A stretch of 64,000 nt of DNA from an archaeon (GCA_043826135.1 JBDRQT010000005.1:6255-70254), one strand, 5' to 3'. Positions 28,976-51,660 are shown, counted from the stretch's first letter. The notes: generated by a model not told the origin, from the letters alone. Made by a program: numbers and translations.

Positions 28976-31900
28976 TTAAGAAGCAACTTGGTCTGAGCCA
29001 GTTAAGAAATTTTCCACTTCTTTTGCAACATCCTTTGCCTTCTTTGCAGTTACACCAAAATCATCTTCACAGTCCATTAAAAGGATAGAGTAAGCATATT
29101 TGCCGTAGCTGCCTATAATGATTCCGGAATCAGTATACACGTTGTGCGGCCAATCATTTCCTTTTGCTGGATAGGCATAGGAGCCGCCTTTGCTGTAAAG
29201 AATATCATGAGATATTGCATCTGCAATACCAAACTTAAAATCAACTGCTCTCTTTAAAGTCTCCAGGGCTTTTGCTTTTTGAGTATCTGTTATTTTTAAA
29301 CCATTATATGTCAAATCTCCATTATATAACTTTTCGTAGAACATGACCATCTCACTTGCAGTTGCAGCTTTTTCACAGTCATCAGCAATTTCAATATTTT
29401 TTTGATTTCCTTCTTTATCTACAGCACTTGTGCAGGCTCTTGGCTTTTCAAATTGCTTTGGGGTATATCCGTCAGCAGTGAAATAGAACTGGCTAACGAA
29501 TGTTTTTGAAAGGCCGTTCTCTTGCAGGAATCTGTTGAATCCTTCCATCTCAGTACTGACAGTGTGTTTTTCAATTTCACTGAATACTCTTGATGTGTCG
29601 TAGTTGTCGCTGACGTTAATCATACCAGTAATATATCTTGCTGCATCTGGCCAGTATTCTTCAGGAACACTCATATAGTAATATACTGAAAGAGGACCCT
29701 TAAACATACTCATAGAATGGAGGAGCGAATTCTCATTCACTTTTATTTCTTCTTTGTTATCCAGATTTCTGAAGCTCGCTGCGCCGTAGCAATCTTTCAT
29801 TATTTTTTTGATATTGCTCTCAACTTCACTTGTGTCTTTTGCAGGTGTAGTGATAGGCACAGTAACTTCAGGAGCATTATCTGTATTTGCATTTTGGGCA
29901 GGTGTTGATGATTTTGACGGTTCTGCAGCTCTGTCTTCAACAATATCATATGAAAACTCAGGATATCTTTTCATTGTTTCATCATTTATTGTCAAAGCAA
30001 ATCTCAGATATAAAGGAGATCCAGATAATTTTTTATAACCAGAATCAACACAAAATTTGAACATATTTGAATTGCTGATAGTATATTGTTCTCCAGGGCA
30101 GCCGTCCAAATACCATACATGCTCAGGGTTTTCAGATAGAACTTTAATAACACAATCTCTATAGCTGGCGCCTGTTTGAACGCAGGCTGAAGCATCACTT
30201 ACTAATATTTCGCTGAACCTGAGCTCGTCATCAATTTTCTTCAAATCAATTTTGCTGTGGACTGTAAATGATGGATTAAGATAATAATAGCCCATCTTAT
30301 CTCCTTTTAGAAGCTCTTCAGGAATTGAGGAATAGTCTGGCTCCGATGTTCCAGAACTTTCAATCAAATGAAGGTATGTAAAGGTAGCGTCAGGATGGCC
30401 CATGTTCCAATCAAATATTCCATTTGATGTATGTGATGCAACTTGATTATTTCCAATGTATACGGCAACATGGTCTATTACAGCATTATTATCCCAATCA
30501 TAGAATATCAGATCTCCAATATCCAATTTGCTTGATGATTCAACCTTAATGCCAATTCCTTTGCTTATCAATAGATCTTTCAATCTCTGTGCACCAGGTT
30601 CTCCATAAGGTATGCATGTGCTTGGGTTATATCTGCAGTCAATAGTTAGTCCACCTTGCTTAAGTGAATACGATGCAAAATGTGCACAATCTGATCCTGA
30701 AATGTAGTTGCTTGGTGCCGTTGCGCCTGCATTAATCATGCCTGAACTGCACTCAGGTGATTCGCTATTTGTAAAAAAGCAGCCATCGTCGACTACTTTT
30801 GTTGCAAATTCCTTTGCATATGCAGCTATTTTTTTCCTGTCAAATCCTTGCGTTTCAGGTGGGGTTACAGTAGGAACATCATCACTGCATGTACTTTTAT
30901 AGTCATCTTCAAGCGTATGGAAGTCTTCAACATAGCTTTGTATCCTCATTATTAAATCAATATATCTGGGATCTCTTGCTCCCCAAAGATTCATGTAATC
31001 ATAAGCATTGCAGCCCCATCCATTGTAACCTCTGAGTGCGATGTCCCAGCCTTTATACACAACGTTTTTTGCAGGTATCCCTGTTCCATCATTAGGGCAA
31101 TAATATTTCTTTTCGCTGTTCAAGCAGTCGAAATATCCGCATTTTTCCCAGATTTCAAGAGCGCCGCATTCAATATTATCAACAAGCTGCCAGGCATCGA
31201 GCTCTCTTCCATCAATCCTGCTTTTTCCACATGCATTGAATGGCTCACCATAAGGAACATACCCTCGGTCTATCTGCATGATACCGACACCTCCATCATA
31301 TGACACTTTCACTTTTCCTTCAGCATCATAATGTTTAATCTGGCTTTCTTTATAGGCGATTGTTAGCAGCATTGAACCAGGCAAATCATACGCTTTTGCA
31401 ACCTCGCAAATCTTTTGCATCTGCTCATCTTGGGTCGCAGCAACTCTTCCTGTAATCTTGCTTCCATTAATTGATGCGACATAGATGCCGCCCATCATTA
31501 TTATCGAAAAGATTGCAATGTGCACAAGCTTCTTTTTTCCGAGAAACAAAATCAAGAGAGCAAATACAGCAAATGCAATAACTACCCATATAGAGAGAGG
31601 CTGCTCAGTATTGCTGTCAAGTATATTCTTGTCATAGTAATCACTCCTTTGACATTTGCCTGTGCAGCATGTCTGGTTATTAAATAATGTAAGTTCATCC
31701 TTGTCGCAGAATTCATTTCCAGAGCACTCAAAAAAATCGAAGTCATTGCAGGTATTTTCCTTGACATTTAGGTTGTCTTTAAGGCATTCATTGCAGCAGG
31801 TAATATTTCCTGTGTTTTGTGGTCCGATGCAGGTCTCATCTGGCGAGCATTCCAACATATCATAAAAACTGCATCCGAGATTATCTAAAGTGTCTTCAAA

Positions 31901-32437
31901 GCAACCTTCAGGAGGAATATCATAAAAATATCCAGTGCAGTCGGGATCACAGATATTATCATCTTCAATTCTGCAGAATCCATCCAAAGAACTTGGCTCG
32001 CAGTCTCCGCAAACGATTTCATTTTCAAAAATTTCACAATTGTCATTTGTGCAGGGTTCACATAAACCATTATTGTTGCACAAAGTTATAGGTTTGCTAT
32101 ATAGTAGGGTATCATTTCTATAGATATTGACTTTTTCTATCTTTGAAAAATCAGGGGTATAGTTTATCTCAGTGAAAGGTGGATAATTGCTGTTTGATTT
32201 CAGAATCAAATTTCCGGACATATCGAGAAATTCCAGTCTGAATGGCCTGTTGTATTCTTGATTTCCACTATAAGCAAGATAATATGGGTTCTGTTCAATT
32301 ACTTGTATATTTCGCAAATCAAGCGAATCATTCTCTTCAATATTTGTGATAAGTATCTTCAGATCATATGTTGCATATACAGAGCTTAGCAAGATAAGCA
32401 GCATCAATGCAATGGTTGTTTTTTTCATTCTATTCAC
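28976..32437 (-). CDS. 1153-aa multi-domain cell-wall hydrolase: Cys-rich ectodomain, 2 TM helices, lytic transglycosylase (SLT), papain-like amidase (Amidase_6/NlpC-P60 clan), class A beta-lactamase-like serine hydrolase domain
   Basis: SLT motifs AYKESQ, GGVGIMQI and LRGYNGWG. Amidase motifs SDCAHFASYSLKQGG ... GDLIFYDW..IDHVAVYIG..ASHTSN. Beta-lactamase-like motifs SMFK (SxxK), MINVSDNYD (SDN), ATASEMVMFYEKLYNG and YSKGGS (KxG). Confidence 0.8.
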   Translation of the reverse strand: MNRMKKTTIALMLLILLSSVYATYDLKILITNIEENDSLDLRNIQVIEQNPYYLAYSGNQEYNRPFRLEFLDMSGNLILKSNSNYPPFTEINYTPDFSKIEKVNIYRNDTLLYSKPITLCNNNGLCEPCTNDNCEIFENEIVCGDCEPSSLDGFCRIEDDNICDPDCTGYFYDIPPEGCFEDTLDNLGCSFYDMLECSPDETCIGPQNTGNITCCNECLKDNLNVKENTCNDFDFFECSGNEFCDKDELTLFNNQTCCTGKCQRSDYYDKNILDSNTEQPLSIWVVIAFAVFALLILFLGKKKLVHIAIFSIIMMGGIYVASINGSKITGRVAATQDEQMQKICEVAKAYDLPGSMLLTIAYKESQIKHYDAEGKVKVSYDGGVGIMQIDRGYVPYGEPFNACGKSRIDGRELDAWQLVDNIECGALEIWEKCGYFDCLNSEKKYYCPNDGTGIPAKNVVYKGWDIALRGYNGWGCNAYDYMNLWGARDPRYIDLIMRIQSYVEDFHTLEDDYKSTCSDDVPTVTPPETQGFDRKKIAAYAKEFATKVVDDGCFFTNSESPECSSGMINAGATAPSNYISGSDCAHFASYSLKQGGLTIDCRYNPSTCIPYGEPGAQRLKDLLISKGIGIKVESSSKLDIGDLIFYDWDNNAVIDHVAVYIGNNQVASHTSNGIFDWNMGHPDATFTYLHLIESSGTSEPDYSSIPEELLKGDKMGYYYLNPSFTVHSKIDLKKIDDELRFSEILVSDASACVQTGASYRDCVIKVLSENPEHVWYLDGCPGEQYTISNSNMFKFCVDSGYKKLSGSPLYLRFALTINDETMKRYPEFSYDIVEDRAAEPSKSSTPAQNANTDNAPEVTVPITTPAKDTSEVESNIKKIMKDCYGAASFRNLDNKEEIKVNENSLLHSMSMFKGPLSVYYYMSVPEEYWPDAARYITGMINVSDNYDTSRVFSEIEKHTVSTEMEGFNRFLQENGLSKTFVSQFYFTADGYTPKQFEKPRACTSAVDKEGNQKNIEIADDCEKAATASEMVMFYEKLYNGDLTYNGLKITDTQKAKALETLKRAVDFKFGIADAISHDILYSKGGSYAYPAKGNDWPHNVYTDSGIIIGSYGKYAYSILLMDCEDDFGVTAKKAKDVAKEVENFLTGSDQVAS

Positions 32438-33608
32438 ATGCCTTTAGCCTGCAGAATTGTGTAACTTGGTTTCTGCCTTCTGCAAACAAGTCTTCATAAT
32501 ATTCATAGCATACTCCAGGAGGTCCGCCATCGCTGTTTCCGATTGAATGGATGAACACATTCCTTCCACTAGGGCTCGGACTGAAATGCTCATAACAAGT
32601 TCTTATCCCAAAATAACTTATCTCTCCGCTGAGCGTTCCGGTTCCAGCATACATCCCCGTATGTCCGATATTGTTTCCTGCCTGGAAAACATCTCCTGGC
32701 TTAAGTGTATTTACATTAGAACCAAGCATAATAACTTTATCTGAATTCGATGAGCATTTGGTGGCGCCATGGCCTGAAAAACTTGAAAAACCTAATTGCT
32801 GGGTAATAACTGATCCGACAAATGTGGCGCAGGTGAGACCAATTCTGCAATCATTTGGAGGAAAGTATTGGCAAGCGATATAGTTTGCATAGCCGCAGTT
32901 GAGGAGATAAGGGCATCCCACAAATTTATCTGCGTATTCTATTAGATACGCACATTTTCCCTCTAGAGTTGGGCTTTCAGTTGTTACATCCGGAGGAATT
33001 GGTTCTTCAGAAGACGGTTCACTAGTGGATGGCTCCTGAGCAGATGGTTCTTGAGGTATCGGCTCTTGCGGCTCTTCAACAATTGGAGGGGGTTCAACAA
33101 ATTTTACCTCTTCTGCAGCGAAGTTATAATCTTTTCCACCAATATCCATTCTCAGGCTTTTTTTCGCTTTGCCGATAAATACAGTTTCTTCACTTTCATT
33201 TATTATATAGTAATCATAACCTATTTCAGGAATCTTTTCAGGGAAATTATCAAGATAACTAATGAATCTTTCTTCAAAACCTGATTTTATCTGGGCTTTC
33301 AGATCAGGGATGCAGTTTTTTGATTCAGTGTTCAGGAGCGGATATCCTTCAAATTCACCGCAACCTGTTGAAATGGCAATCTCATCGATTGATTCCTGAT
33401 AAGCCTTGTCTGCCGATTTGTCTATGTAATAAAGTGGAACTTCTCCGTGCTCATATGTTTCCATCAGAACAGCTTGTTTTTCTCCTATTGATTTTTCAAA
33501 TTTTGCGCTTTTGGTATGCACTGCAAAATAAAGCATGGGCAGAACTGCGAATATGAAAAGGATTGTTAGCATCAATACAAAAATACTACCTTTTCTCCCG
33601 TGTATCAT
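32430..33608 (-). CDS. NlpC/P60 cysteine peptidase with prepilin-like N-terminus and Pro/Glu-rich linker
   Basis: N-terminus GRKG/SIFVLMLTILFIFAVL. Linker PPPIVEEPQEPIPQEPSAQEPSTSEPSSEEPIPP. Catalytic region FVGCPY...GLTCATFVGSV...LKPGDVFQA..GHTGMYAG...FIHS. Confidence 0.8.
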   Translation of the reverse strand: MIHGRKGSIFVLMLTILFIFAVLPMLYFAVHTKSAKFEKSIGEKQAVLMETYEHGEVPLYYIDKSADKAYQESIDEIAISTGCGEFEGYPLLNTESKNCIPDLKAQIKSGFEERFISYLDNFPEKIPEIGYDYYIINESEETVFIGKAKKSLRMDIGGKDYNFAAEEVKFVEPPPIVEEPQEPIPQEPSAQEPSTSEPSSEEPIPPDVTTESPTLEGKCAYLIEYADKFVGCPYLLNCGYANYIACQYFPPNDCRIGLTCATFVGSVITQQLGFSSFSGHGATKCSSNSDKVIMLGSNVNTLKPGDVFQAGNNIGHTGMYAGTGTLSGEISYFGIRTCYEHFSPSPSGRNVFIHSIGNSDGGPPGVCYEYYEDLFAEGRNQVTQFCRLKACE

Positions 33609-34048
33609 TTGTACCCCTTAATCACTAGCTGAAGTTTGATAGCATCAGATTCACCTGGAAGATATATTGTTGAGTCCAGTAAATTGTCTTTTCCGGCAGA
33701 AATGCAGCTTCTGTCAAAAGCCGTTTTTTCATCAATGAGTAGCTTCCAGCACACATCGCTGCCGTAATAATCCTTCAGAAGATAACTAAATTCATCTTCA
33801 AAATAATTAATGTTATTTTGTTCATATGATTGTATCAGCAGATCAGATATTTCAGTATCATTTAGCTCTGTTCTAAGAATTGTCAGGAATACTTCATCAT
33901 TTCCGAGCCGGTTTACCTTGTCTTCAACAACAGTCTTATGACTGATCCCTTCATATCGCATTATAATTATCCATATCGTCATACCTATTATTAGTATAAG
34001 CCATGAGGCTATGTCATAGAATGATATTACCTGTGCTTTTTTATTCAT
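33605..34048 (-). CDS. prepilin-like protein
   Basis: MNKKAQ/VISFYDIASWLILIIGMTIWIII. 4-nt and 8-nt overlaps with neighbouring genes. Confidence 0.65.
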   Translation of the reverse strand: MNKKAQVISFYDIASWLILIIGMTIWIIIMRYEGISHKTVVEDKVNRLGNDEVFLTILRTELNDTEISDLLIQSYEQNNINYFEDEFSYLLKDYYGSDVCWKLLIDEKTAFDRSCISAGKDNLLDSTIYLPGESDAIKLQLVIKGYK

Positions 34049-34538
34049 TTTTGCTTATCACATGTATTTTTATTATGCCCGGGAACAAAATTCCTTTATT
34101 TCTAATGAGGACGGGCCTTCTGATTATTGATTTATCATACTGGTCAAAATTTGTCAGCGGAGACCACCTTTCATACCATATTTTATTCACGTAAAGTTCT
34201 CTGATGTCATTATCAGCAAGCGTAGTTAACTCAATTTTTGCCGCAATATTATTACCCTCACCGATAAGGAATGCTTTTTCAAAAGATTCCTGGGTTGCTT
34301 TGGTTACGTCAATTATTCCAGGAAATACCCTATTTGTTTGTGGGTCTTTATAGGCTAGAGCATCTGGAGAATAAATGATTCTCTGAAGTGTTATCTGATC
34401 ATTTATCTTATGGGAATCAAGAGCTGTGTCAATAAGATTTGAGTACATATACACAAAGATGATAAAAATGAGCGCAATATAAGGAAGCCTGATAATTGTG
34501 TTCCACAATATCTCATATGCATCTCCTTTTTTATTCAT
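34041..34538 (-). CDS. prepilin-like / N-terminally anchored protein
   Basis: MNKKGD/AYEILWNTIIRLPYIALIFIIFVYMY. Translationally coupled to its neighbours. Confidence 0.6.
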   Translation of the reverse strand: MNKKGDAYEILWNTIIRLPYIALIFIIFVYMYSNLIDTALDSHKINDQITLQRIIYSPDALAYKDPQTNRVFPGIIDVTKATQESFEKAFLIGEGNNIAAKIELTTLADNDIRELYVNKIWYERWSPLTNFDQYDKSIIRRPVLIRNKGILFPGIIKIHVISKNE

Positions 34539-34996
34539 TTTAATACTTCCTCTGTATTTATTATCGCGATAGGATTTATCCGTGCAGGCGTCTTCTTGAA
34601 TCCAAGTGCAAGAAGGTAGTTTTTCTCCTTATCTTCGTCAACAAGAGACGATTTGATTTTTTTGTATCTTATCTTCAGGCCCTCATCTTCAATGAAAGGA
34701 TATGATTTTCCAGTAAGTTCACCTTCTTTCGGATTGTAAACTGTCACTTTGTTCTTTTCAAATCTGACATCAAAATCAAATTCATTTTCAGTGTAGACAA
34801 AAAAGACATTGTTCGGAGCAGAGTGAAGGTTATTCATGACAAGAGCAAGGTCTTTTGCAAGATACCTTTTCTCGAAGTTGTTGTTGTTCAGAAGGGAATT
34901 TATCACGTATAATATAGACATAAGTATCACTGCAAGAAAGAACAGATTTATCAGCCACCAGAGTACTTCGTTGGTCTGGCCTCTTTTATGCAGCAT
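34535..34996 (-). CDS. prepilin-like protein (first gene of the distal transcription unit)
   Basis: MLHKRGQ/TNEVLWWLINLFFLAVILM. ATG 34996 lies 24-37 nt downstream of AAATAATATAAAC (TATA); the ORF-track start at 35014 is the alternative. Confidence 0.6.
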   Translation of the reverse strand: MLHKRGQTNEVLWWLINLFFLAVILMSILYVINSLLNNNNFEKRYLAKDLALVMNNLHSAPNNVFFVYTENEFDFDVRFEKNKVTVYNPKEGELTGKSYPFIEDEGLKIRYKKIKSSLVDEDKEKNYLLALGFKKTPARINPIAIINTEEVLK

Positions 34997-35249
34997 AGTC
35001 CTAAAAAAGAGCATAGGGTTTATATTATTTGCTCTAACTGTAGTTGTGTATATTTATTGTTTTCTTTGAACTGAGTATTTTTCTTTCCTGACGGCAGACG
35101 CCCAAATTTGCGGATTTGTGCTATGCGACAGCCCGAAGGGCGCGACCCCAGTTGCATCTGCGTCAAGAAAAATATTGTTTATTGTAGAATCTGCACAACT
35201 CCAGTTGCTCTAAGTAGGATTCAAATATAACCTAAATATTCTTTGTAGG

Positions 35250-35507
35250 ATGGATATTGGAACCCTTCTTGAGAATTTGCCATCTTCAGAAGGATATATG
35301 CGTTCTATGAAGATGTCTGAAGCAGAGGAAAAAGGAATTGAATTTAGTGGTGAATATCTATTTAGATTATTTGAAGTTTATCCAGGTGGATACATCTTCA
35401 GGATGATTGAAATACACAAAATGATGACAAATGATAGATTGATGCATACATACATGCGGATTGGAAATTGGCTTTTATATCAGGGTTCTCAAGAACTGCA
35501 TGAATGA
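35250..35507 (+). CDS. hypothetical 85-aa cytoplasmic protein on the opposite strand inside the pilin-like locus
   Basis: ORF with CAAATATAAC about 20-28 nt upstream. No TM helix and no recognised family. Could be spurious. Confidence 0.3.
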   Translation: MDIGTLLENLPSSEGYMRSMKMSEAEEKGIEFSGEYLFRLFEVYPGGYIFRMIEIHKMMTNDRLMHTYMRIGNWLLYQGSQELHE

Positions 35508-35510
35508 TTT

Positions 35511-35999: not shown

Positions 36000-36270
36000 C
36001 TGTAGTCTTCCATTCACCTGCTTCGCAGGTCCTTTTTTGATTGCTCACAGGATTGCATTCCACTTTTCCGTCCTCGCACTTTCTTCCAAAAGCCCTAAAT
36101 AGATCATCCAAGATATTTCCGCCTTCTTTAGCTCCTTCATCACGTATCCCAAGCATGCTATTTATCGTCGGCCTAAATAATGCATAGAACACCGCAATCA
36201 CAACGACTAGTACAACTAGCGCAAGAATAACCTTTACAAGCACTTCAAATTCTAATCCTTTCTTGTTCAT
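35983..36270 (-). CDS. small prepilin-like protein (95 aa) with 4 Cys
   Basis: MNKKG/LEFEVLVKVILALVVLVVVIAVF, then CEDGKVEC...CEAGEW..EAC. Confidence 0.65.
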   Translation of the reverse strand: MNKKGLEFEVLVKVILALVVLVVVIAVFYALFRPTINSMLGIRDEGAKEGGNILDDLFRAFGRKCEDGKVECNPVSNQKRTCEAGEWKTTDEACD

Positions 36271-36271
36271 C

Positions 36272-45951: not shown

Positions 45952-45976
45952 TTACTATATTCTCTAATTCTATTAG

Positions 45977-46206: not shown

Positions 46207-46680
46207 TTATTTGCACACATCAAGCCTAACAACAATAGGCGGCGATGGTGGAATATAATAGAATCCGGGCTGCTCTTTCTCGCTGAAACTGTCGCATCCT
46301 GGAGTTGCAATCGTCTGAATCTTCTGGCCTGCACCTTCTTTTGTAACAGTCAGCCTGTATGGTTTTTTCCATTTTGCAAGAGTGTTTGTCAGGGCGTTTG
46401 ACATCACGGTCTCGGCATACTGGCAGCAGTCAGATGTCTCACCGCAAAGATCGTTCCTGTTGGAAAAGCAGTCTTTGATAACGTCAGATACCAGAACACT
46501 CTTGTAAGTTTTTGTATTCATGAGCGAGTTAAGGAAACTCTGCGACAGTTTCGGGTCGATGAATGATCGTGTCTGGCTGCCGGACGCCCGCATCCTCTGG
46601 GTTATCATGAAGACTCCTCCTATTATTAGGAGTATAACAATTATCACAACGCCAATTATATCAGTCTGCGCTCTTCTCAT
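46207..46680 (-). CDS. prepilin-like Cys-containing protein (cassette copy B, member 3)
   Basis: MRRAQ/TDIIGVVIIVILLIIGGVFMI. Paralog of 2665..3138. ATGA overlap with the upstream gene. Confidence 0.7.
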   Translation of the reverse strand: MRRAQTDIIGVVIIVILLIIGGVFMITQRMRASGSQTRSFIDPKLSQSFLNSLMNTKTYKSVLVSDVIKDCFSNRNDLCGETSDCCQYAETVMSNALTNTLAKWKKPYRLTVTKEGAGQKIQTIATPGCDSFSEKEQPGFYYIPPSPPIVVRLDVCK

Positions 46681-47222
46681 TCATACACCCCAAGATAGAT
46701 AATCCCAAAATAGCTGGAAGATTCTCTTACATCCTTTAGCAGTACCGGGAACTGGACTTCCTTGTATCCCATATCTTTCTCATCAGGCTTTGGGAAATCA
46801 TAGACCTCCCATGACTGTATCTCTTTATTGACCTCAGGGCTAGGATCATATCTGACTACTTTTATCTTGACGTTTCCAAGCAGGGAATGATAATATAAAG
46901 TGTCAGTCCCTAAGTATTTTGTAAATGATTCAATCTTTAATATATCGTAGCAGTCAGGATCAAGATTATTGTTGTCAGAACATTGCATCTCTGGCAGGAA
47001 ATTTAAGACCTGGGCTTTTTTCATCATTTCCAGATCCTTGAATTCTGAAATCTTATCCCTCTGTTCTGCCTGCTGCATAACCATGACAAAAACAAATGCT
47101 ATTGCGAATATAATGAATAATATGATTAGGATGAATGTGTTTTCCATCAGCTGAAGCTGTGCTTTCTTTTGAAATCTCCGGCTTCTAAAGTGCTCAAATT
47201 TTTTTAATTTATTACATTTCAT
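46677..47222 (-). CDS. prepilin-like protein with long conserved leader (cassette copy B, member 2)
   Basis: MKCNKLKKFEHFRSRRFQKKAQ/LQLMENTFILIILFIIF. Paralog of 3119..3646. Confidence 0.7.
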   Translation of the reverse strand: MKCNKLKKFEHFRSRRFQKKAQLQLMENTFILIILFIIFAIAFVFVMVMQQAEQRDKISEFKDLEMMKKAQVLNFLPEMQCSDNNNLDPDCYDILKIESFTKYLGTDTLYYHSLLGNVKIKVVRYDPSPEVNKEIQSWEVYDFPKPDEKDMGYKEVQFPVLLKDVRESSSYFGIIYLGVYE

Positions 47223-47223
47223 C

Positions 47224-48234
47224 TTAATACACCGTAGGACACGATTTTTTATTTAGCTCTTTATTAAGTGCGGTCAGCCTTTCTTTTATCGAACTGATCT
47301 TTGAGAATGCAGCTCTTGAAATCTCAGGGGTATCAGTGGCAGATTCAAGCTCAGAGAGCATGCCTTCAGCTTCTTGGTATGCTGACGAGATGCAAAGGGG
47401 CATGAGGTTGCTGCTCTGTATTGTTTTTACTCTCTCTTTCAGGATGGCAGAGAATTTATTTAGCCTCCTGATTGATTTTTTCATATTGCATTCATATGCA
47501 CCCAAATTTTCAGTGTAGATTGCTGCAAGCATTGAGGTCTGGTCAAGATAATATGTTTCACCCAGTTCTTCGAATGATCCATCTTTTTTCTGGTAGTATT
47601 TTACAGTTTTCAGCCCTTCATTCACGTATACTGCAGAGACATCCTCATCATTGAGTTTCCTGAGGGATGCATCAACTGAGGACAGCATATCTTCATTAGT
47701 TGTGAAAAACCTGACTTTATAGTAATTCTGGTTGACAAAGTCATCTGCTCTTGCCACTTTCTCTTTTGTAAGGTGTTCAGGCAGCTCGCCAAATATGGCA
47801 TTATTTCCAATGGAAACATACGCTATTTCAGGGCTTGTGAGGAACAAGAAATAATTTACCCTGAAAGGCATATCCCAGCCGAGACTGTAAGATAATATCT
47901 TTTTTTTAATATAATTAGGGCCAAATAAAGGGACAAATTCAGTGCTTCTGCCGCCAAGATCAGAGCCTTTTATAGTATATCTATTGCAATCATCAGCATC
48001 AGATGCAACTTCAAGCTCAAGGCCTGCTAGGGTTATGGAATTTTCTGTATTTTCTGATGCTTGCACACTTGTGAAAATCTCATCGAAATAAGTGATTGCA
48101 TCTATTTCCAGTTTGGTTTTAGAGCTTTTCCTGATGCCTGATGCAATATTGATAAAGACCAGCAGAATCACAGCGCCGACTACTGCAATATAAATCCAAT
48201 TGAACTGAATCTGTTCCTGACCTTTCTTTAGCAT
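47224..48234 (-). CDS. prepilin-like protein (cassette copy B, member 1)
   Basis: MLKKGQ/EQIQFNWIYIAVVGAVILLVF. Paralog of 3648..4667. Confidence 0.7.
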   Translation of the reverse strand: MLKKGQEQIQFNWIYIAVVGAVILLVFINIASGIRKSSKTKLEIDAITYFDEIFTSVQASENTENSITLAGLELEVASDADDCNRYTIKGSDLGGRSTEFVPLFGPNYIKKKILSYSLGWDMPFRVNYFLFLTSPEIAYVSIGNNAIFGELPEHLTKEKVARADDFVNQNYYKVRFFTTNEDMLSSVDASLRKLNDEDVSAVYVNEGLKTVKYYQKKDGSFEELGETYYLDQTSMLAAIYTENLGAYECNMKKSIRRLNKFSAILKERVKTIQSSNLMPLCISSAYQEAEGMLSELESATDTPEISRAAFSKISSIKERLTALNKELNKKSCPTVY

Positions 48235-48734
48235 GTATCAGTTTTCTCCTTTTTCAGGCAAGCAAATTTTCCAGTTGCTTCAAACCATACAGATAGTTTT
48301 CCCTGATTTTTCAAACATAAATAATCTCCAAGCACATCAAGATCCTCAACATAGAAAGGAGCATCATTCTCAATAAGGCCATTATTCATCAGGAATACAT
48401 TCTCACGCACATTATCAGTTACCTTGTCACTTATCCAATCATTATCAATTGACGCAGTTATATGAAATTTCTCATCTTCGCCCATGGAATCGATGAAACA
48501 GATCTGATCAAATTTCTGTGGGATCGTGAAACTATATTTCTTGATGCTTCCATATCCTCTTGACATCTCAGCGACAGTTGATGTGAACGCAGCTTTGAAT
48601 GTATCAATAGGTGCTTTCTGTGCTTCGTTCATTATTGTGCTGATTGACCTGTATCCAACTATAAGGATAAGACCAATTACTACAGCTGCAAGGATATAGA
48701 TAAATACCTGAGCTGATATCTGTCCTCTATTCAT
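48228..48734 (-). CDS. prepilin-like protein
   Basis: MNRGQ/ISAQVFIYILAAVVIGLILIVGY. ATG 48734 overlaps the stop of the upstream gene by 8 nt. The ORF-track start at 48797 would run deep into the 977-aa gene. Confidence 0.65.
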   Translation of the reverse strand: MNRGQISAQVFIYILAAVVIGLILIVGYRSISTIMNEAQKAPIDTFKAAFTSTVAEMSRGYGSIKKYSFTIPQKFDQICFIDSMGEDEKFHITASIDNDWISDKVTDNVRENVFLMNNGLIENDAPFYVEDLDVLGDYLCLKNQGKLSVWFEATGKFACLKKEKTDTC

Positions 48735-51660
48735 CTTTTTTCCTCTTCTTGATTTTTTCAAGCTCTTCAAATGCATCATCATTTGAAATATTTTCAAGCC
48801 TATTAAATATTTTCTCTTTCTGGAATTCTTCCGGGGATCTCTCTTTGCTGACTCTCTCTACAACAGGGCTAACTTCTTCAATATGCTTTGGTTGCTCCTC
48901 CCCAAATTCATCAAACACAGTCGACATTTTTTTCATTCTCATTTCTTCCCTTTTTTTCTTTATCTGCACATCAAGAGCATCATCTGTAAGGGAATGGGTC
49001 TCGAGTTTCTGGCTGCTAAGTGTCTGTTCTTCAGATTTCATATCTTTTTTTGCTTTTCCGAAATCAATCATAGGCATTTTTATATCCCCAAAAGAAAACC
49101 CTCCCCCTTTTGAGGAAGGTTGCTTTCCAGGTGAAAATTTTCCTTGCGGTAGTTTTCCTTGCGCTGGAATTCCAGAACCAGGGTTTCCTTGCATAGCAGA
49201 CAAAGGAGATGTTTTCTTTGACAGGTTTATTCCAAGATCAGGTATACCTTCTTTTAGGAAAATGAATATACTTCCAGCAATGCTCGCAATTCCAACTACA
49301 AACAACAATATTTGGAGGACATGTGATTTCGGAAAACTGTCTTTGTTTGTCGGATCAGTCTCTTTTTCAATTTCCAGTCCGTCTGCATAGTCATCCCCGT
49401 CAGTGTCAGGATCATCTATCTTTGTGCCATATTTTATGCATTCCCTGTAATTTGATAGTCCATCATCATCATTATCCAGATTCGCATCCTTTTGGTTATT
49501 TGGATCAAGCCCACATTCTTTCTCCTTTATATCACTAATTCCATCATCATCACTGTCTTTGTTCAGATCAACAGGAAAACTGTTCTTATCAAGAGGATTT
49601 GTTCCTTGGGTGATTTCAACATTATCATCATATTCATCCCCATCAGTGTCCTTTTTATTTAAGTCAGTCTTGTAGGTGAGGCATTCATCTTTATTCTTAA
49701 TTGTGTCATTATCAAAGTCTTGGAGTGCATCATCTTTATTCTTTGGATCTAGGCCGCAATCCTTTTCCTTCAAATCAAGTATTCCGTCGCCATCGAGATC
49801 CAGATTATCAAGGATGCAGTCCAGATCTGTTATTAAACTGCAATCATCAGTGCAATAATAGCCTTGTTTATCGACGCAGCAGGATTCATTTTTTGAGCAA
49901 TCCTGATATTTAATTACAAATGAATCTTCAACTGATTTCTTTTTGTTGTCAGTTATATTATAACAGATAGTGCTTGCCTCTTTGATAAGAATATTGCTTG
50001 TTGACAGATATCTGGTATATCCGCAGCTTCCGCATTCCTTGCATGAGGAGTTGGTTGATGAATCAATTATACTATAATAAGTACTTGCGCATGACCCACC
50101 GATATCGTCGTCTTTGCATGCGAGATCCACCTTAACTCCGAAGGGTGTTAGAGTTTTTTGGACTTCGATTTTTGGAGGAGAGTTGGTCATACAGACTTCT
50201 GTATCTTCAGGGAGGATAGTAGTTCCAAGCGATTTTTTAATAGTCCCATTATTCCCTGCATTATCACGAGCAGACACTTCCCAATAATATTTTTGTGATC
50301 TCTCAAGGCTGAGGTTGAATAGTTCAATATGATTAAGATTTGTATTTGCACTATATAATACTGAATTTTTATAGTCAAGAAGCTTAACAGTGTAATTTAA
50401 GATATCAGTATCAAGGGAATAATAATCTACAGAAAGATGGTCACTGGCGCAGGTCTCTAGTATCGATGACACATTGTACATCTCAGGAGGTGACCTGTCA
50501 ACTACAAAAGAGATTGTATCTTCGAGAACGCTCGCATCTCCGAAAACACAAAGTATTGGGATGCTGTAGGTGCCTTCTGATAGATTTTCTCTAGCAATAT
50601 AATGTTCTTTTTTAGAAACTTGTGGAAACTGATACAGGAAACCTTCACCATATTTACAAGTAGAATCCTTGTTTGTAACAACTCGGAGTTCTGATTTTAT
50701 ATCCTGAAGATAACCTGATGGGAGTTTCAAGGTTATCAAATTTTTAACTGACAGATCCACATCAAAAGAAATTTGGCTGATTGCAGGCATCTCCGCTCTG
50801 TTCATGCATGCAACGACAAAAGTATATTTTTTATTGTCTTCTATCTTCGGCGACGAGTATTTAGTGAGTTTCAAAACATTGTGCGTAGTGAAATCTTCAA
50901 TTTCTGAATCAATGAAAAGGTTCTTCATATCAGATAAGTTTGTTCCAAGTATCGGGAATTTGCAGACTGTCTTATCATCGGTGTCTGCAATGAGTTCCAC
51001 TTCAAGTTTTTCAATTACTTTTTCAGGATTTGCCTTTGCAAGGAGTATCCTTGGTTCAGAACTGTCAATACTTAGCAGGAATTCCTTTGGGAATGCATCA
51101 TTCGCATAGCCCAATTTTGTCTTGCAAAAAACATAAATTGCGGTATCGAAAGAAGTAGAGAGCGGAAAGTTCAGAATCTGATGATTAAATCCATTTGTGG
51201 TTGAAAATTTCTGGCTGGCAGAGTCTATAGAGTCATAAGTATCAGTTTTGGAAGTTGAATATTTACAGTCAGACGTGTTTGATGTCTTTAATATAAGGTC
51301 AAAAGGGGCTGCAGCCGACACACCATATTTCGGATTAGTTATTGTGATATTTACCAGGCTTTTTGTCGGGTAGCTCGTGGCATCAGTTAAATTTGTTCCA
51401 TATAGATATTCAAGCGTATCTGACCAGAAATCAGAATCAGAATCATTGCTCATAGGATTGCTTCCAAGTTTGTATTCAATTATATTATACAATGTATCCC
51501 AGTCAGGGTCGCTTGTCCCTGTGAGCGTCCTGTTGCCAAAATACCTTATTTCCCAGGTGTCATCAAGACCGTCTCCATCAGTGTCTTCAGCATGGGCATT
51601 AAACACTAAAATTAATAGAACAATTGCTACGGCAAATTTATGCACTGTACTTTTCAACAT
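48727..51660 (-). CDS. 977-aa surface adhesin-like protein with thrombospondin type-3-like Ca-binding repeats and C-terminal TM anchor
   Basis: Signal peptide. DTDGDGLDDTWE, DLDGDGILD, DTDGDEYDD, DSDDDGISD and DTDGDDYADG (DxDxDG repeats). Ig-like modules resemble those in the subtilase and giant protein (..SNTSDCKYS..). TM helix ILLFVVGIASIAGSIFIFL followed by a charged cytoplasmic tail. AGGTGGG precedes the ATG. Confidence 0.8.
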   Translation of the reverse strand: MLKSTVHKFAVAIVLLILVFNAHAEDTDGDGLDDTWEIRYFGNRTLTGTSDPDWDTLYNIIEYKLGSNPMSNDSDSDFWSDTLEYLYGTNLTDATSYPTKSLVNITITNPKYGVSAAAPFDLILKTSNTSDCKYSTSKTDTYDSIDSASQKFSTTNGFNHQILNFPLSTSFDTAIYVFCKTKLGYANDAFPKEFLLSIDSSEPRILLAKANPEKVIEKLEVELIADTDDKTVCKFPILGTNLSDMKNLFIDSEIEDFTTHNVLKLTKYSSPKIEDNKKYTFVVACMNRAEMPAISQISFDVDLSVKNLITLKLPSGYLQDIKSELRVVTNKDSTCKYGEGFLYQFPQVSKKEHYIARENLSEGTYSIPILCVFGDASVLEDTISFVVDRSPPEMYNVSSILETCASDHLSVDYYSLDTDILNYTVKLLDYKNSVLYSANTNLNHIELFNLSLERSQKYYWEVSARDNAGNNGTIKKSLGTTILPEDTEVCMTNSPPKIEVQKTLTPFGVKVDLACKDDDIGGSCASTYYSIIDSSTNSSCKECGSCGYTRYLSTSNILIKEASTICYNITDNKKKSVEDSFVIKYQDCSKNESCCVDKQGYYCTDDCSLITDLDCILDNLDLDGDGILDLKEKDCGLDPKNKDDALQDFDNDTIKNKDECLTYKTDLNKKDTDGDEYDDNVEITQGTNPLDKNSFPVDLNKDSDDDGISDIKEKECGLDPNNQKDANLDNDDDGLSNYRECIKYGTKIDDPDTDGDDYADGLEIEKETDPTNKDSFPKSHVLQILLFVVGIASIAGSIFIFLKEGIPDLGINLSKKTSPLSAMQGNPGSGIPAQGKLPQGKFSPGKQPSSKGGGFSFGDIKMPMIDFGKAKKDMKSEEQTLSSQKLETHSLTDDALDVQIKKKREEMRMKKMSTVFDEFGEEQPKHIEEVSPVVERVSKERSPEEFQKEKIFNRLENISNDDAFEELEKIKKRKKDE

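What the first reader, a model, noticed from the sequence alone, without database searches (positions are those of the whole stretch)
28976..51660. 22.7-kb minus-strand super-locus: many prepilin-like ORFs, giant Cys-rich proteins and murein hydrolases - candidate undescribed surface apparatus
Seen directly in the sequence:
- Every long ORF from 51660 down to 28976 is on the minus strand, except one doubtful 85-aa ORF. Most genes are coupled by 1-8 nt overlaps.
- The locus falls into three transcription units: 51660-46207, 45951-35511 and 34996-28976.
- At least 14 ORFs here, plus 3 more in the duplicated cassette at 2665-4679, begin with [KR][KR]-[GA]-[Q/L/E/S..] followed by a roughly 20-residue hydrophobic helix (KKAQS, RKAQS, RRAQT, KKAQL, NRGQI, KRGQT, KKGLE, IKGEI, KKGAV, KRGIT...). 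This is the archaeal class III (type IV prepilin-like) signal pattern.
- Interleaved with these are a 977-aa Ca-repeat adhesin and 1372-aa and 981-aa proteins with no recognisable domains.
- At the 3' end sit two peptidoglycan-hydrolase proteins.

Inference: a filament- or pilus-like structure whose subunits or tip components include giant adhesins and wall-degrading enzymes. One possible role is host attachment or penetration by an episymbiotic archaeon.

No assembly ATPase (PilB/ArlI-like Walker protein), polytopic platform protein or prepilin peptidase is encoded in the 64 kb. The machinery is therefore either elsewhere in the genome or unconventional.
Basis: partly seen in the sequence, partly recalled or inferred. 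Interest (0 to 1): 0.85.

Follow-up and report, generated by a model that had tools for sequence, protein, structure and literature searches.

The report
Conserved prepilin-like surface gene cluster in Woesearchaeota
This is a real gene cluster, conserved in about 50 species of tiny DPANN archaea (Woesearchaeota). It encodes about 16 pilin-like surface proteins, giant adhesins and bacterial-wall-cutting enzymes. It is most likely the structural kit of a pilus-type organelle for attaching to and opening other cells, but its assembly motor was not found nearby.

Summary
Positions 28976-51660 carry 21 co-directional, mostly overlapping minus-strand genes. Sixteen begin with a short basic leader ending in Gly/Ala, often followed by Gln, and then a roughly 20-residue hydrophobic helix.

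The order is conserved. Most of ~50 Woesearchaeota/Nanoarchaeota species genomes, including the complete genome GW2011_AR15, share this layout:
- a c611-family protein, then a giant adhesin;
- four pilin-like genes, then small Cys-rich pilins and two headless mini-pilins;
- further pilin-like genes, then an enzyme-bearing pilin-like protein.

AlphaFold models of two members show a 55-80 residue N-terminal helix followed by a beta-sheet module.

In relatives the same pilin-like modules are fused to Peptidase_M23, NlpC/P60, Amidase_2 and NAGPA domains. In the window the terminal 1153-aa protein carries NlpC/P60, a beta-lactamase-like domain and a weak SLT-like domain. The "domain-less" 1372-aa protein is a paralogue of the 611-aa gene beside the duplicated cassette.

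No PilB/FlaI-type ATPase motif and no recurrent polytopic protein (platform or peptidase candidate) lies within 10 kb in any locus. Genome-wide presence could not be tested.

Best reading: an unusually large, enzyme-armed variant of an archaeal type IV filament (Epd-like) pilin locus. Public records call nearly all its proteins hypothetical.

The parts
48727..51660 (-). g977: 977-aa surface adhesin or S-layer-like protein. It has a Sec signal (AHA|E), TSP3-type Ca-binding repeats, 24 Cys, a C-terminal TM anchor and a charged tail.
   Evidence: Pfam TSP3_bac E 1.3e-8. TM segments. Orthologues head the cluster in 51 loci; in most species they are about 2100 aa with CarboxypepD_reg/Ig-like domains.
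48228..48734 (-). g189 (168 aa from MNRG|Q): first gene of the conserved four-gene pilin-like block.
   Evidence: Start and 8-nt overlap. [KR][GA] motif in 39 of 43 orthologues.
47224..48234 (-). g336: large pilin-like protein (KKG|QEQIQFNWIY). It is the core marker of the cluster.
   Evidence: 43 homologues, all from DPANN. Invariant Cys and the QFNWIY motif. AlphaFold pLDDT 88.6, helix 3-57 plus a beta domain plus a helical bundle. No PDB or BFVD fold match.
46677..47222 (-). g181: pilin-like protein (QKKA|QLQLMEN), third gene of the block.
   Evidence: Gln at +1 in 32 of 32 orthologues. Paralogue c175.
46207..46680 (-). g157: pilin-like protein (MRRA|QTDIIG) with 6 Cys, fourth gene of the block.
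   Evidence: The Q-x-E/D motif is conserved and Gln at +1 occurs in 23 of 24 orthologues. Paralogue c157.
41833..45951 (-). g1372: giant Cys-rich (66 Cys) protein with a class III-like start (MGKG|S). It is a c611-family paralogue with a long variable C-terminal extension and Gly-rich hydrophobic segments at about residues 1250-1310.
   Evidence: hhalign versus the c611 family: probability 99.1%, E 1.4e-18. phmmer versus the L011 840-aa protein: E 8e-46. No Pfam hit. Hydrophobic segments.
41487..41759 (-). g90: small Cys-rich pilin-like protein (MKKA|QSISINTIVVAAIALIV). It is a candidate filament subunit.
   Evidence: The N-terminal helix is highly conserved across species. It has its own upstream A+T-rich promoter-like gap.
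41126..41389 (-). g87: tandem paralogue of g90 (MRKA|QSISINTVIV).
   Evidence: 47% identical to g90. [KR][GA] motif in 39 of 39 family members.
40934..41050 (-). g38: headless mini class III protein (MKKRG|ITSMWISIVVVVIFVILFLVAL...).
   Evidence: Called on the Logan contig. An equivalent 37-43 aa ORF sits at the same position in most loci.
40076..40930 (-). g284: pilin-like protein (MKKG|AVIL) with 8 Cys.
   Evidence: Orthologues in 30 loci; motif in 23 of 26.
39946..40086 (-). g46: second headless mini class III protein (..DKG|IQWDF plus a TM helix). The gene caller's start is at 40095.
   Evidence: Orthologues KKGLEFDM / KKGMEMWQLV are conserved in most loci.
36999..39944 (-). g981: 981-aa conserved protein of unknown fold. 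It has an N-terminal hydrophobic anchor (ambiguous VKA|I) and a conserved C-terminal NYCY...LNW.LP...WP region with a Gly/Ala-rich hydrophobic segment.
   Evidence: No Pfam hit. 296 representatives at E<=1e-3; six distant ones also lack Pfam domains. Present in only 10 loci. C-terminal sequences.
36272..36997 (-). g251: 241-251 aa protein with an N-terminal signal anchor and no [KR][GA] motif.
35983..36270 (-). g104: small pilin-like protein (MNKKG|LEFEVLVK) with 4 Cys.
35511..35999 (-). g168: pilin-like protein (IKG|EITLEFLIK) with 6 Cys.
34997..35510 (.). 514-nt gap specific to this genome. It holds the doubtful antisense 85-aa ORF and a ~95-nt G+C-rich structured element at about 35070-35170.
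   Evidence: The gap is absent or shorter in L002, L005 and L006. RNAfold z = -3.26. No Rfam hit.
34535..34996 (-). g159: pilin-like protein (MLHKRG|QTNE). Its orthologues carry enzyme modules in other species.
   Evidence: The L006 orthologue is fused to NAGPA (E 4.8e-13) and the L023 orthologue to Amidase_2 (E 4.1e-14).
34041..34538 (-). g165: pilin-like protein (MNKKG|DAYEILW).
33605..34048 (-). g147: pilin-like protein (MNKKA|QVISFYD).
   Evidence: Motif in 10 of 12 orthologues.
32430..33608 (-). g392: modular pilin-like protein. It consists of a class III-like start (RKG|S), a helix plus 4-strand beta module, a Pro/Glu-rich linker, and a Cys-rich C-terminal domain with invariant Cys260/His316/His354. 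It is a possible divergent papain-like hydrolase.
   Evidence: Alignment. AlphaFold pLDDT 71.6. Foldseek negative. Weak NlpC/P60 hits in 2 of 12 homologues. The N-module is fused to M23 plus NlpC/P60 in L006. The protein at the same position in AR15 is named M23 metallopeptidase.
28976..32437 (-). g1153: multidomain wall hydrolase. It has a Sec signal, a Cys-rich N-domain, two TM helices, an SLT-like segment (ES...GIMQI...GYNGWG), NlpC/P60, and a class A beta-lactamase-like domain.
   Evidence: Pfam NLPC_P60 6e-8, Beta-lactamase2 4.8e-10, SLT 0.039. Weak EtgA alignment. TM segments.
2665..4679 (-). Second cassette of three genes: c343 (3648-4679), c175 (3119-3646) and c157 (2665-3138). These are paralogues of g336, g181 and g157.
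   Evidence: BLASTP 26-37% identity, E 1e-22 to 1e-47. The same second cassette occurs in L002 and L015.
4909..6744 (+). c611: 611-aa class III-like protein (MKS|QVTVF) with a Cys-rich C-terminus. It is divergent from the second cassette and is the family prototype for g1372.
   Evidence: Gln at +1 in 12 of 12 scored family members; leaders KK[SA]|Q in the examples shown. Orthologues sit immediately upstream of the giant adhesin in many species. hhalign link to g1372.

Best explanation
The locus is the structural (extracellular) gene set of a type IV filament-like surface organelle of a Woesearchaeota-type DPANN archaeon.

**Proposed working (all steps inferred)**
1. About 16 proteins are made with class III (prepilin-type) leaders.
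2. An unlinked A24-family signal peptidase cleaves them after Gly/Ala, exposing Gln at +1.
3. An unlinked ATPase and platform extract them from the membrane by their N-terminal helix.
4. The invariably ordered block g189-g336-g181-g157 forms a priming or tip complex of minor pilins.
5. Next to that complex sit the Sec-exported giant adhesin (g977) and the big Cys-rich class III proteins of the c611/g1372 family.
6. The small Cys-rich pilins (g90, g87) and/or the headless mini-pilins (g38, g46) form the shaft.
7. Further minor pilins are 'modular pilins'. Their C-terminal modules are interchangeable cell-wall hydrolases (g392 here; M23, NlpC/P60, Amidase_2 and NAGPA in relatives). In this subclade they are helped by the membrane-anchored multi-enzyme g1153.
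8. The organelle would bind another cell and locally cut its peptidoglycan. The producer is an archaeon, and archaea are not known to make peptidoglycan (established knowledge). The target would therefore be a bacterium.

**Shown directly**
- gene order and its conservation;
- the N-terminal motif and its conservation;
- the helix plus beta-module architecture of two members;
- the enzyme fusions.

**Inferred**
- cleavage of the leaders;
- polymerisation into a filament;
- tip location of the block and adhesins;
- the target.
For: **Gene structure and motif**
- Co-directional, overlapping genes.
- 16 of 21 genes have [KR][GA] followed by a hydrophobic helix. Of 16 stringent six-frame regex hits in the whole window, 15 fall in the locus or its paralogous cassette.
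- The motif is kept in orthologues of about 50 species. Counts: g87 39/39, g189 39/43, g336 35/43, g181 31/34 with Gln at +1 in 32/32, g157 with Gln at +1 in 23/24.
- The pattern equals that of EppA substrates in M. maripaludis: a 5-13 aa leader ending in Gly, Gln at +1 and Glu at +5 (PMC3875500).
- A canonical MKKRG|QIAVEYILI protein with a weak Class_IIIsignal Pfam hit lies next to the cluster in a relative.

**Conservation**
- Synteny across 51 species-representative genomes, including the complete AR15 genome.

**Structure**
- AlphaFold g336: pLDDT 88.6, helix 3-57, then a beta domain.
- AlphaFold g392: helix 5-80, a four-strand sheet, a disordered linker, then a C-terminal domain.
- Conserved Cys pairs imply an extracellular location.

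**Enzyme modules and small subunits**
- Pilin-module fusions to M23 plus NlpC/P60, NAGPA and Amidase_2. The AR15 protein at the g392 position is named M23 peptidase.
- g1153 has NlpC/P60 and Beta-lactamase2 domains.
- Two conserved headless mini-pilin families resemble head-less Epd/Flp-type major pilins (preprint 10.64898/2026.04.22.720090).

**Precedents in the literature**
- Archaeal T4P loci are known to combine minor pilins, S-layer-like proteins and large adhesins. Pilin genes are often encoded away from the ATPase/TadC genes (PMC4858521).
- The window also encodes a 3134-aa DUF2341 plus LamG protein. This is the adhesin type linked to clade-1 archaeal T4P.
Against: - No T2SSE-type ATPase motif and no recurrent polytopic protein (platform or peptidase candidate) lies within 10 kb of the cluster in any of 51 species. 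Pfam shows no T2SSE, T2SSF or Peptidase_A24 family in the window or the ~20 kb of adjoining contig sequence.
- One groundwater study states that type IV pilus components are missing in DPANN genomes (10.1101/2020.05.14.094862).
- No member reaches any Pfam or NCBIfam pilin or Class_IIIsignal model.
- Foldseek finds no solved pilin similar to g336 or g392.
- A PDB profile search with the small pilins finds nothing.
- The head domains of the families are unrelated to each other.
- [KR][GA] followed by a TM helix is also compatible with an uncleaved signal anchor.
- Only two of about 16 proteins were modelled.
Confidence: 0.55

Rival explanations
1. Pseudopilus or bindosome-like envelope structure rather than a long pilus. 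The class III proteins are processed and assembled into a short, cell-envelope-spanning stack, as in type II secretion pseudopili or the Sulfolobus bindosome. Its job would be to hold adhesins and hydrolases in or just beyond the S-layer, or to push them out.
For: - The number of different pilin-like families (about 16) with unrelated heads is very high, and no family is clearly dominant as a 'major' subunit.
- Several members carry enzymes.
- An S-layer-like giant protein is always the neighbour.
- Class III signals on non-filament surface proteins are known from Sulfolobus (cited in PMC3875500, refs 33-34).
Against: - The known bindosome and T2SS loci keep their ATPase and platform genes close by. 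Here none is linked.
- The small g87/g90 proteins and the mini-pilins have extremely conserved N-terminal helices. These are typical of polymerising major subunits.
Confidence: 0.2
2. Not a type IV filament at all. The N-termini are uncleaved signal anchors. The proteins form a membrane-anchored multi-protein attachment or feeding complex on the archaeal surface, and no TFF machinery is involved (an 'unconventional' apparatus).
For: - No assembly genes lie near the cluster in any species.
- There is a literature statement that T4P components are missing in DPANN.
- No profile or fold match to any known pilin.
Against: - Across about 15 unrelated families, a small residue at -1, a basic residue at -2 and Gln at +1 are near-invariant. 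An acidic residue at +3 to +6 is frequent. A mere anchor would not need this.
- The 38-50 aa proteins consist of only leader plus helix. They make little sense as anchors with nothing to anchor.
- Other DPANN are reported to have TFF system 1/4A machinery.
Confidence: 0.2
3. Integrated virus or mobile element encoding entry or lysis proteins (adhesins plus lysins).
For: - Lysin-type domains (NlpC/P60, SLT-like, M23, Amidase_2) and giant receptor-binding-like proteins are present.
- A Bro-N domain gene lies at 7247-7891, near the second cassette.
Against: - The order is the same in about 50 species at 25-65% protein identity, which is the pattern expected of vertical inheritance.
- The locus is flanked by housekeeping genes: gyrA here, RPA or PCNA in relatives.
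- There is no capsid, terminase or integrase gene.
- No relative occurs on 2.9 million IMG/VR viral contigs.
- GC content is like the rest of the window.
Confidence: 0.02

Closest known systems
Epd pili / archaeal type IV filament 'system 1' (clade 1) of Methanococcus maripaludis and relatives
   Same: - Short class III leaders ending in Gly, Gln at +1 and an acidic residue near +5.
- Several (5 or more) minor pilins with unrelated heads.
- Very small major pilins lacking a globular head.
- Association with large adhesins and S-layer-like proteins, with pilin genes partly away from the motor genes (PMC3875500; PMC4858521; preprint 10.64898/2026.04.22.720090).
- A DUF2341 giant protein is present in the window.
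   Different: - No member matches Pfam Class_IIIsignal (DUF361) or any pilin model.
- There are about three times more pilin-like families.
- The mini-pilins are shorter (about 33-45 residues when mature).
- Enzyme-bearing members are present.
- EppA, the ATPase and the two TadC genes that define the system are not linked, and their presence in the genome is untested.
Bacterial minor-pilin tip complex with PilY1/PilC adhesin (FimU-PilVWX-PilY1; GspH-I-J-K of type II secretion)
   Same: Four pilin-like genes lie in a fixed order next to a very large Ca-binding adhesin. One of the four is about 330 aa with an extra helical domain, which is the size class of GspK/PilX. Such complexes prime assembly and sit at the tip (PMC8179133 discussion).
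   Different: - No sequence or fold similarity was detected.
- The adhesin here is a C-terminally anchored Sec protein with TSP3/Ig-like repeats, not a PilY1 beta-propeller.
- The signal type is archaeal.
- The analogy rests on gene order and sizes only.
Modular type IV pilins (e.g. Streptococcus sanguinis PilB/PilC)
   Same: An N-terminal pilin module is joined by a linker to a functional module that the filament presents. The g392 model shows exactly this layout. Relatives carry M23, NlpC/P60, Amidase_2 or NAGPA as the grafted module. A peptidase module is among the known bacterial architectures (PMC8179133).
   Different: - This is an archaeal class III type, not IPR012902.
- The modules are peptidoglycan hydrolases in an archaeon, which is not expected to have peptidoglycan of its own (established knowledge).
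- Several such proteins occur in one cluster.
Sulfolobus bindosome (Bas system)
   Same: Class III signal peptides on surface proteins that are not classical pilins; a proposed pseudopilus-like envelope assembly.
   Different: The Bas substrates are sugar-binding proteins, and the system has its own linked ATPase and platform (BasEF). Neither is present here.
Specialised peptidoglycan lytic enzymes attached to trans-envelope machines (e.g. EtgA of T3SS)
   Same: g1153 has an ES...GIMQI...YNGWG segment that aligns weakly with EtgA and with Pfam SLT. It is encoded at the end of an appendage gene cluster.
   Different: - The matches are below significance.
- The bacterial enzymes open the producer's own wall, whereas here the wall must belong to another organism.
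- g1153 additionally carries NlpC/P60 and a beta-lactamase-like domain.
Type IV pili of episymbiotic CPR bacteria (Saccharibacteria)
   Same: An ultrasmall episymbiont uses pili for host recognition and attachment (PMC9894109, PMC11623550 abstracts).
   Different: The CPR system is bacterial, with linked PilB/PilC/PilD. The present system is archaeal, its motor is unknown, and it is enzyme-armed.

Membership tests
Type IV filament (TFF) superfamily: pilin component | N-terminal class III signal: a short charged leader ending in Gly/Ala, followed by about 20 hydrophobic residues | tested here: met
   Found in 16 of 21 genes and conserved in orthologues of about 50 species. This is a sequence pattern only; cleavage is not shown.
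Type IV filament (TFF) superfamily: pilin component | Pilin fold: a long N-terminal alpha-helix (about 50 aa) followed by a beta-sheet head | tested here: inconclusive
   AlphaFold: g336 has helix 3-57 plus a beta domain (pLDDT 88.6). g392 has helix 5-80 plus a 4-strand sheet. Foldseek finds no solved pilin.
Type IV filament (TFF) superfamily: system | PilB/FlaI/TadA-family assembly ATPase | tested here: not met
   No GxxxxGK[ST] ORF in the window. No T2SSE Pfam hit in the window or the adjoining ~20 kb. No T2SSE-like Walker motif within 10 kb in 51 loci. Presence elsewhere in the genome could not be tested.
Type IV filament (TFF) superfamily: system | Polytopic platform protein (PilC/TadC/FlaJ) | tested here: not met
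   No recurrent polytopic protein near the cluster. No T2SSF Pfam hit in the window. Genome-wide presence is not testable.
Type IV filament (TFF) superfamily: system | A24-family class III signal peptidase (PibD/FlaK/EppA) | not testable with these tools
   None in the ~84 kb that could be read. The only membrane protease there is a rhomboid (8100-8744). The rest of the genome and the complete AR15 genome could not be scanned.
Epd-type pilins (Pfam PF04021 Class_IIIsignal / DUF361) | Match to the DUF361 profile (Q-x-S-x-E-x-x-x-L after the cleavage site) | tested here: not met
   No hit for any locus protein or for 41 + 17 + 12 homologues, even at permissive E-values. Gln at +1 and a nearby acidic residue are nevertheless frequent.
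Archaeal TFF system 1 (clade 1) | Large DUF2341-containing (PilY-like) adhesins associated with the system | tested here: inconclusive
   A 3134-aa DUF2341 plus Laminin_G_3 protein is encoded at 14225-23629. It lies outside the cluster and was not seen within 10 kb of the cluster in relatives.
Modular pilins | Pilin module plus linker plus a functional domain not specific to pili | tested here: met
   g392 model. L006 g392-module plus M23 plus NlpC/P60; L006 g159-family plus NAGPA; L023 g159-family plus Amidase_2. AR15 M23 protein at the g392 position. This is conditional on the N-module being a true pilin module.
NlpC/P60 peptidoglycan endopeptidases | Profile match including the Cys-His-His/polar catalytic residues | tested here: met
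   g1153 residues about 580-674: PF00877 E 6e-8, 33 bits versus cut-off 23.
NlpC/P60 peptidoglycan endopeptidases (g392 C-domain) | Profile or fold match | tested here: inconclusive
   No Pfam hit for g392. Two of 12 homologues hit weakly (best E 0.017). Cys260 is invariant at the N-terminal end of a helix, and His316 and His354 lie on strands. Foldseek is negative.
Lytic transglycosylase (SLT, family 1) | Profile match with the ES / GLMQ / AYNxG motifs | tested here: inconclusive
   Pfam SLT E 0.039, below cut-off. EtgA alignment E 0.62. The motifs ES, GIMQI and GYNGWG are visible in the sequence.
Prophage / mobile element | Viral hallmark genes, or occurrence on viral contigs | tested here: not met
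   No hallmark domains. No relative on IMG/VR contigs. The same gene order is kept in about 50 species.

The most novel reading that the evidence does not exclude
Woesearchaeota share a dedicated, lineage-wide 'attack' organelle built from prepilin-like subunits, in which interchangeable peptidoglycan hydrolase modules are grafted onto the subunits themselves. On this reading these archaea attach to and breach bacterial cells, a cross-domain parasitism or predation. The organelle might be assembled by machinery that is not the canonical TFF ATPase, platform and peptidase set. Two observations fit this: the reported lack of type IV pilus genes in DPANN, and the absence of any linked motor in 51 species.
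Probability: 0.15. Interest if true: 0.85.

Novelty: new variant of a known kind. Interest (0 to 1): 0.62.

Why it matters
No cultured Woesearchaeota appeared in the papers I read, and their partners remain a matter of prediction (my own background knowledge, not tested here). How DPANN cells grip and tap other cells is a central open question.

This cluster gives a concrete, conserved and easily recognisable set of about 20 candidate genes for that interface. It is a marker (QFNWIY protein plus neighbours) found in about 50 species.

The peptidoglycan-specific modules (M23, NlpC/P60, Amidase_2, SLT-like) are attached to pilin-like carriers in organisms not expected to have peptidoglycan. This points to bacteria as targets, which is a testable prediction about host range.

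The cluster also shows that catalogues of archaeal type IV filaments anchored on ATPase/platform co-localisation may miss large stand-alone pilin clusters. It would extend the 'modular pilin' principle to archaea and to lytic enzymes.

If the motor genes prove absent from complete genomes, the system would be something new.

Tried and rejected
- **Family libraries.** Pfam and NCBIfam scans of all locus proteins found no pilin or Class_IIIsignal model, even when 70 homologues were scanned at permissive thresholds.
- **g336 fold.** Foldseek of the g336 model against PDB and BFVD found nothing at E<=0.001.
- **g392 fold.** Foldseek of the g392 model against PDB found no NlpC/P60 or other fold. 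PDB sequence searches of g392, g1153 and its segments gave only sub-threshold hits. A profile of the small pilins against PDB gave nothing.
- **Relations between head domains.** hhalign of head domains between 15 families showed no relationship, so the families did not arise by recent duplication of one pilin.
- **g392 versus g1153.** BLASTP and phmmer of the g392 C-domain against the g1153 NlpC/P60 domain were not significant.
- **g981.** The word-indexed search found only 5 homologues. The exhaustive profile search found 296 representatives, but six distant ones carry no Pfam domain, so there is no functional clue.
- **Motor genes.** I searched near the cluster with a Walker-motif regex, TM counting, and extension of the window through Logan contigs. 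None was found.
- **Virus or mobile-element idea.** Rejected.
- **The 514-nt gap.** Rfam search found nothing.
- **Literature.** The Castelle 2015 paper on AR15 and the supplements of the 2026 TFF preprint were not available.
- **GspK analogy.** I considered that g336 is a GspK homologue. There is no evidence beyond size and gene order, so it is kept only as an analogy.

Full report
**1. What is in the sequence**

The window has about 38% G+C and archaeal housekeeping genes: an MBF1-like HTH protein, a THUMP methyltransferase, gyrA, and CTP synthase.

Homologues of the locus proteins come only from Woesearchaeota/Nanoarchaeota-type DPANN metagenome genomes.

From 51660 down to 28976 I find 21 minus-strand genes. 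Plus-strand ORFs in the interval are antisense ORFs inside longer genes. The one exception is an 85-aa ORF in a 514-nt gap that orthologous loci lack.

With starts refined by comparison with orthologues, 13 of 19 junctions are overlaps of 4-17 nt or spacers of 1-3 nt. The larger gaps (255, 73, 97, 75 and 514 nt) each contain A+T-rich TATA-like sequences about 25-35 nt upstream of the next start.

**2. The prepilin-like N-termini are real and conserved**

Sixteen genes start with 3-20 mostly basic residues ending in [KR][GA], followed by about 20 hydrophobic residues. They are g189, g336, g181, g157, g1372, g90, g87, g38, g284, g46, g104, g168, g159, g165, g147 and g392.
- g981 is ambiguous (VKA|I, not conserved).
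- g251 is a plain signal anchor.
- g977 and g1153 have ordinary Sec signals.

A stringent pattern applied to every possible start in all six frames of the 64 kb finds 16 sites. Thirteen are in the locus, 2 in the paralogous cassette at 2665-4679, and 1 is a false internal start.

Across orthologues from about 50 species the motif is kept even where the leader length changes:

| Family | [KR][GA] motif | Gln at +1 |
|---|---|---|
| g87 | 39/39 | - |
| g189 | 39/43 | - |
| g336 | 35/43 | - |
| g181 | 31/34 | 32/32 |
| g157 | 22/25 | 23/24 (Q-T-E-I) |
| c611 | - | 12/12 of those scored (leaders KK[SA]\|Q in the examples shown) |

The combination of a short leader ending in Gly, Gln at +1 and an acidic residue at +3 to +6 is what has been described for the EppA-processed pilins of Methanococcus maripaludis (PMC3875500). 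A relative also encodes, next to the cluster, a canonical MKKRG|QIAVEYILI protein with a weak Pfam Class_IIIsignal hit.

None of the locus families themselves reaches any pilin or Class_IIIsignal profile.

**3. Conservation of the cluster**

Contigs carrying homologues of g336 and g981 show the same gene order. Every locus gene has a syntenic orthologue at 25-60% identity.

A scan of one genome per species found 51 loci. Iterated profile assignment gives a common map:
1. a c611-family protein;
2. a giant adhesin;
3. g189, g336, g181, g157;
4. one or two small g87/g90 pilins;
5. a ~40-aa and a ~48-aa mini class III protein;
6. a ~270-aa protein;
7. g284;
8. a g90-like protein;
9. a ~220-aa protein (in the position g251 occupies in this window);
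10. g159, g165, g147;
11. g392;
12. then a housekeeping RPA gene.

The complete genome GW2011_AR15 has the cluster. Seven of the eight AR15 cluster proteins I looked up are named 'hypothetical protein'. The eighth, at the g392 position, is named M23 metallopeptidase.

g981 and the extra terminal enzyme gene occur only in the subclade that includes this window.

The second cassette (c343-c175-c157 with divergent c611) is also found in relatives.

**4. The giants**

- **g977.** It has bacterial TSP3 repeats, a Sec signal, 24 Cys and a C-terminal anchor. In most species its counterpart is about 2100 aa with CarboxypepD_reg/Ig-like domains. This is the S-layer-like or adhesin type that accompanies many archaeal type IV pilus loci (PMC4858521; preprint).
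- **g1372.** It is not an orphan. Its first ~150-290 residues are homologous to the c611 family (hhalign probability 99.1%, E 1.4e-18; phmmer E 8e-46 to an 840-aa protein that sits upstream of the adhesin in another genome). Each of the two cassettes in this window therefore has one c611-family partner. That partner has a class III-like start, a conserved N-domain and a variable Cys-rich C-terminal extension.
- **g981.** It belongs to a family with 296 representatives and no Pfam domain, even in distant members. Its function remains unknown.

**5. Structure**

- **g336** (41-sequence alignment): pLDDT 88.6, pTM 0.82. It has a single helix at residues 3-57, then a beta-rich domain and a C-terminal helical bundle. 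Nothing similar was found in PDB or BFVD.
- **g392** (12 sequences): pLDDT 71.6. Its parts are:
  - helix 5-80 and helix 103-119;
  - a four-strand sheet at 131-167;
  - a disordered Pro/Glu-rich linker at 169-214;
  - a better-modelled C-terminal domain (block-mean pLDDT mostly 74-93).

  This is the layout called a 'modular pilin' in bacteria (PMC8179133).
- **Head domains.** The head domains of the families are unrelated by profile comparison.

**6. Enzymes**

g1153 has, in order:
- a Sec signal;
- a Cys-rich N-domain;
- two TM helices;
- an SLT-like segment (Pfam E 0.039; weak alignment to the T3SS lytic enzyme EtgA; ES, GIMQI and GYNGWG motifs);
- NlpC/P60 (E 6e-8);
- a Beta-lactamase2 domain (E 4.8e-10).

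The g392 C-domain has invariant Cys260, His316 and His354 in a papain-like arrangement. Only 2 of 12 homologues touch NlpC/P60 weakly. I leave its activity open.

The decisive point comes from relatives:
- The g392 N-module (residues 1-156) is fused to Peptidase_M23 (2.8e-28) plus NlpC/P60 (4e-10). The C-terminus of that fusion protein matches g1153.
- A g159-family protein is fused to NAGPA (4.8e-13).
- Another g159-family protein is fused to N-acetylmuramoyl-L-alanine amidase (Amidase_2, 4.1e-14).

The AR15 protein at the g392 position is annotated M23.

Peptidoglycan hydrolase modules have thus been grafted repeatedly onto the pilin-like carriers of this cluster. In one relative the terminal gene instead carries a GDSL lipase domain.

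**7. What is missing**

- No ORF of 100 aa or more in the window has a GxxxxGK[ST] motif.
- No T2SSE, T2SSF or A24 domain appears in the window or in about 20 kb of adjoining contig.
- None of the 51 loci has a T2SSE-like Walker protein or a recurrent polytopic protein within 10 kb.

Whole genomes could not be scanned with the tools at hand.

The literature is divided. One study says type IV pilus components are missing in DPANN. A 2026 survey finds TFF system 1 and 4A in some DPANN. In archaea, pilin genes are often separate from the motor genes (PMC4858521).

**8. Interpretation**

*Best explanation (confidence about 0.55).* This is the structural gene set of a type IV filament-like organelle.
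- It has a four-protein priming or tip block, associated giant adhesins, and small or headless shaft subunits.
- It has enzyme-bearing modular minor pilins that, together with g1153, cut the peptidoglycan of a bacterial partner.
- Gene order, motif conservation, two architectures and the fusions are shown.
- Cleavage, polymerisation, placement and target are inferred.

*Rivals.*
- A short pseudopilus or bindosome-like envelope assembly (0.2).
- An uncleaved, membrane-anchored complex independent of TFF machinery (0.2).
- A mobile element (0.02). This is rejected by the shared gene order across about 50 species, housekeeping flanks and absence from viral contigs.

**9. Comparison and novelty**

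The closest system is the Epd/system-1 pilus of methanococci. The best functional analogies are the bacterial minor-pilin/PilY1 tip complex and modular pilins.

The cluster fails the profile-based membership tests, and the motor-gene tests fail locally. I therefore file it as 'works like' an archaeal type IV filament locus, not as a proven member.

Full-text searches found only 8 papers mentioning both Woesearchae* and pilin, and 20 mentioning Woesearchae* and type IV pil*. None of the listed titles or abstract openings, nor the passages of the three I opened, describes this cluster.

I rate it a new variant of a known kind, for four reasons: its size (about 16 class III families), its lineage-wide conservation, its lytic modules on pilin-like carriers, and its unlinked or unknown motor.

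**10. Limits**

- Only two proteins were modelled.
- Model coordinates could not be inspected.
- Start codons of several small genes are inferred from orthologues.
- Family assignment of short hydrophobic proteins by iterated HMMs may over-merge families (g104, c157).
- Many GenBank records of the related contigs are labelled 'uncultured Methanosarcinales', which I could not evaluate.

Noticed in passing
window 35070-35170 (minus strand), in the 514-nt gap 34997-35510: A ~95-nt G+C-rich element with a ~19-bp stem (UUUUUCUUGACGCAGAUGC...GCGUCUGCCGUCAGGAAAGAAAAA). RNAfold z = -3.26. It has no Rfam match, is unique in the window, and is absent from orthologous loci. It may be a small RNA or the remnant of an insertion. 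The doubtful 85-aa ORF (35250-35507, +) lies beside it.
   Followed up: partly
window 14225-23629 (+) and 10640-13942 (+): A 3134-aa protein with DUF2341, four Laminin_G_3, sialidase-N and GH130-like segments. This is the 'PilY-like' adhesin type that Makarova et al. link to clade-1 archaeal type IV pili. It is preceded by a 1100-aa subtilase with a CUB domain. Both may belong to the same surface tool kit but are not part of the conserved cluster.
   Followed up: partly
window 7247-7891 (+): A 214-aa protein with a BRO-N domain (E 3.3e-7), a family typical of viruses and phages. It lies just downstream of the second cassette and the c611 gene.
   Followed up: no
window 8100-8744 (-): A rhomboid intramembrane protease (E 1.6e-34). 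It is the only membrane protease in the window and is not an A24 prepilin peptidase.
   Followed up: no
window 40934-41050 (-) and 39946-40095 (-); equivalents in most of L002-L057: Two families of 37-52 aa proteins consisting only of a class III-like leader, one hydrophobic helix and a ~15-residue tail (e.g. MNKKGMEMWQLVLIILALLLL...). They are conserved in position across Woesearchaeota. They are easily missed by gene callers.
   Followed up: yes
L004 541-1074 (-) (contig CAZHYZ010000001.1): A 177-aa protein starting MKKRGQIAVEYILIITVAL. This is a textbook DUF361-type class III signal and a weak Pfam Class_IIIsignal hit. It is encoded about 6 kb upstream of the cluster in a relative, next to another protein with a similar start. 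This suggests these genomes do process class III signals.
   Followed up: partly
L007, L008, L010, L013-L015 and about 15 other loci: Many GenBank 'MAG TPA_asm' records that carry this Woesearchaeota-type cluster are titled 'uncultured Methanosarcinales archaeon'. This is either a placeholder or wrong taxonomy, or a binning issue.
   Followed up: no
window g1372 residues ~1250-1310 and g981 residues ~915-960: Both giant proteins have Gly/Ala-rich hydrophobic stretches near the C-terminus (e.g. GGVCGAVLTLGGALLGGVGVGTASLG), reminiscent of glycine-zipper membrane-inserting segments. In g981 the stretch is flanked by the conserved motifs NYCY...LNW.LP...WP.
   Followed up: no
L002 20910 onward (contig k141_339967): In this relative the gene after the g392 orthologue encodes a 910-aa protein with GDSL lipase domains instead of peptidoglycan hydrolases. 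The terminal 'effector' of the cluster therefore varies between lineages.
   Followed up: no
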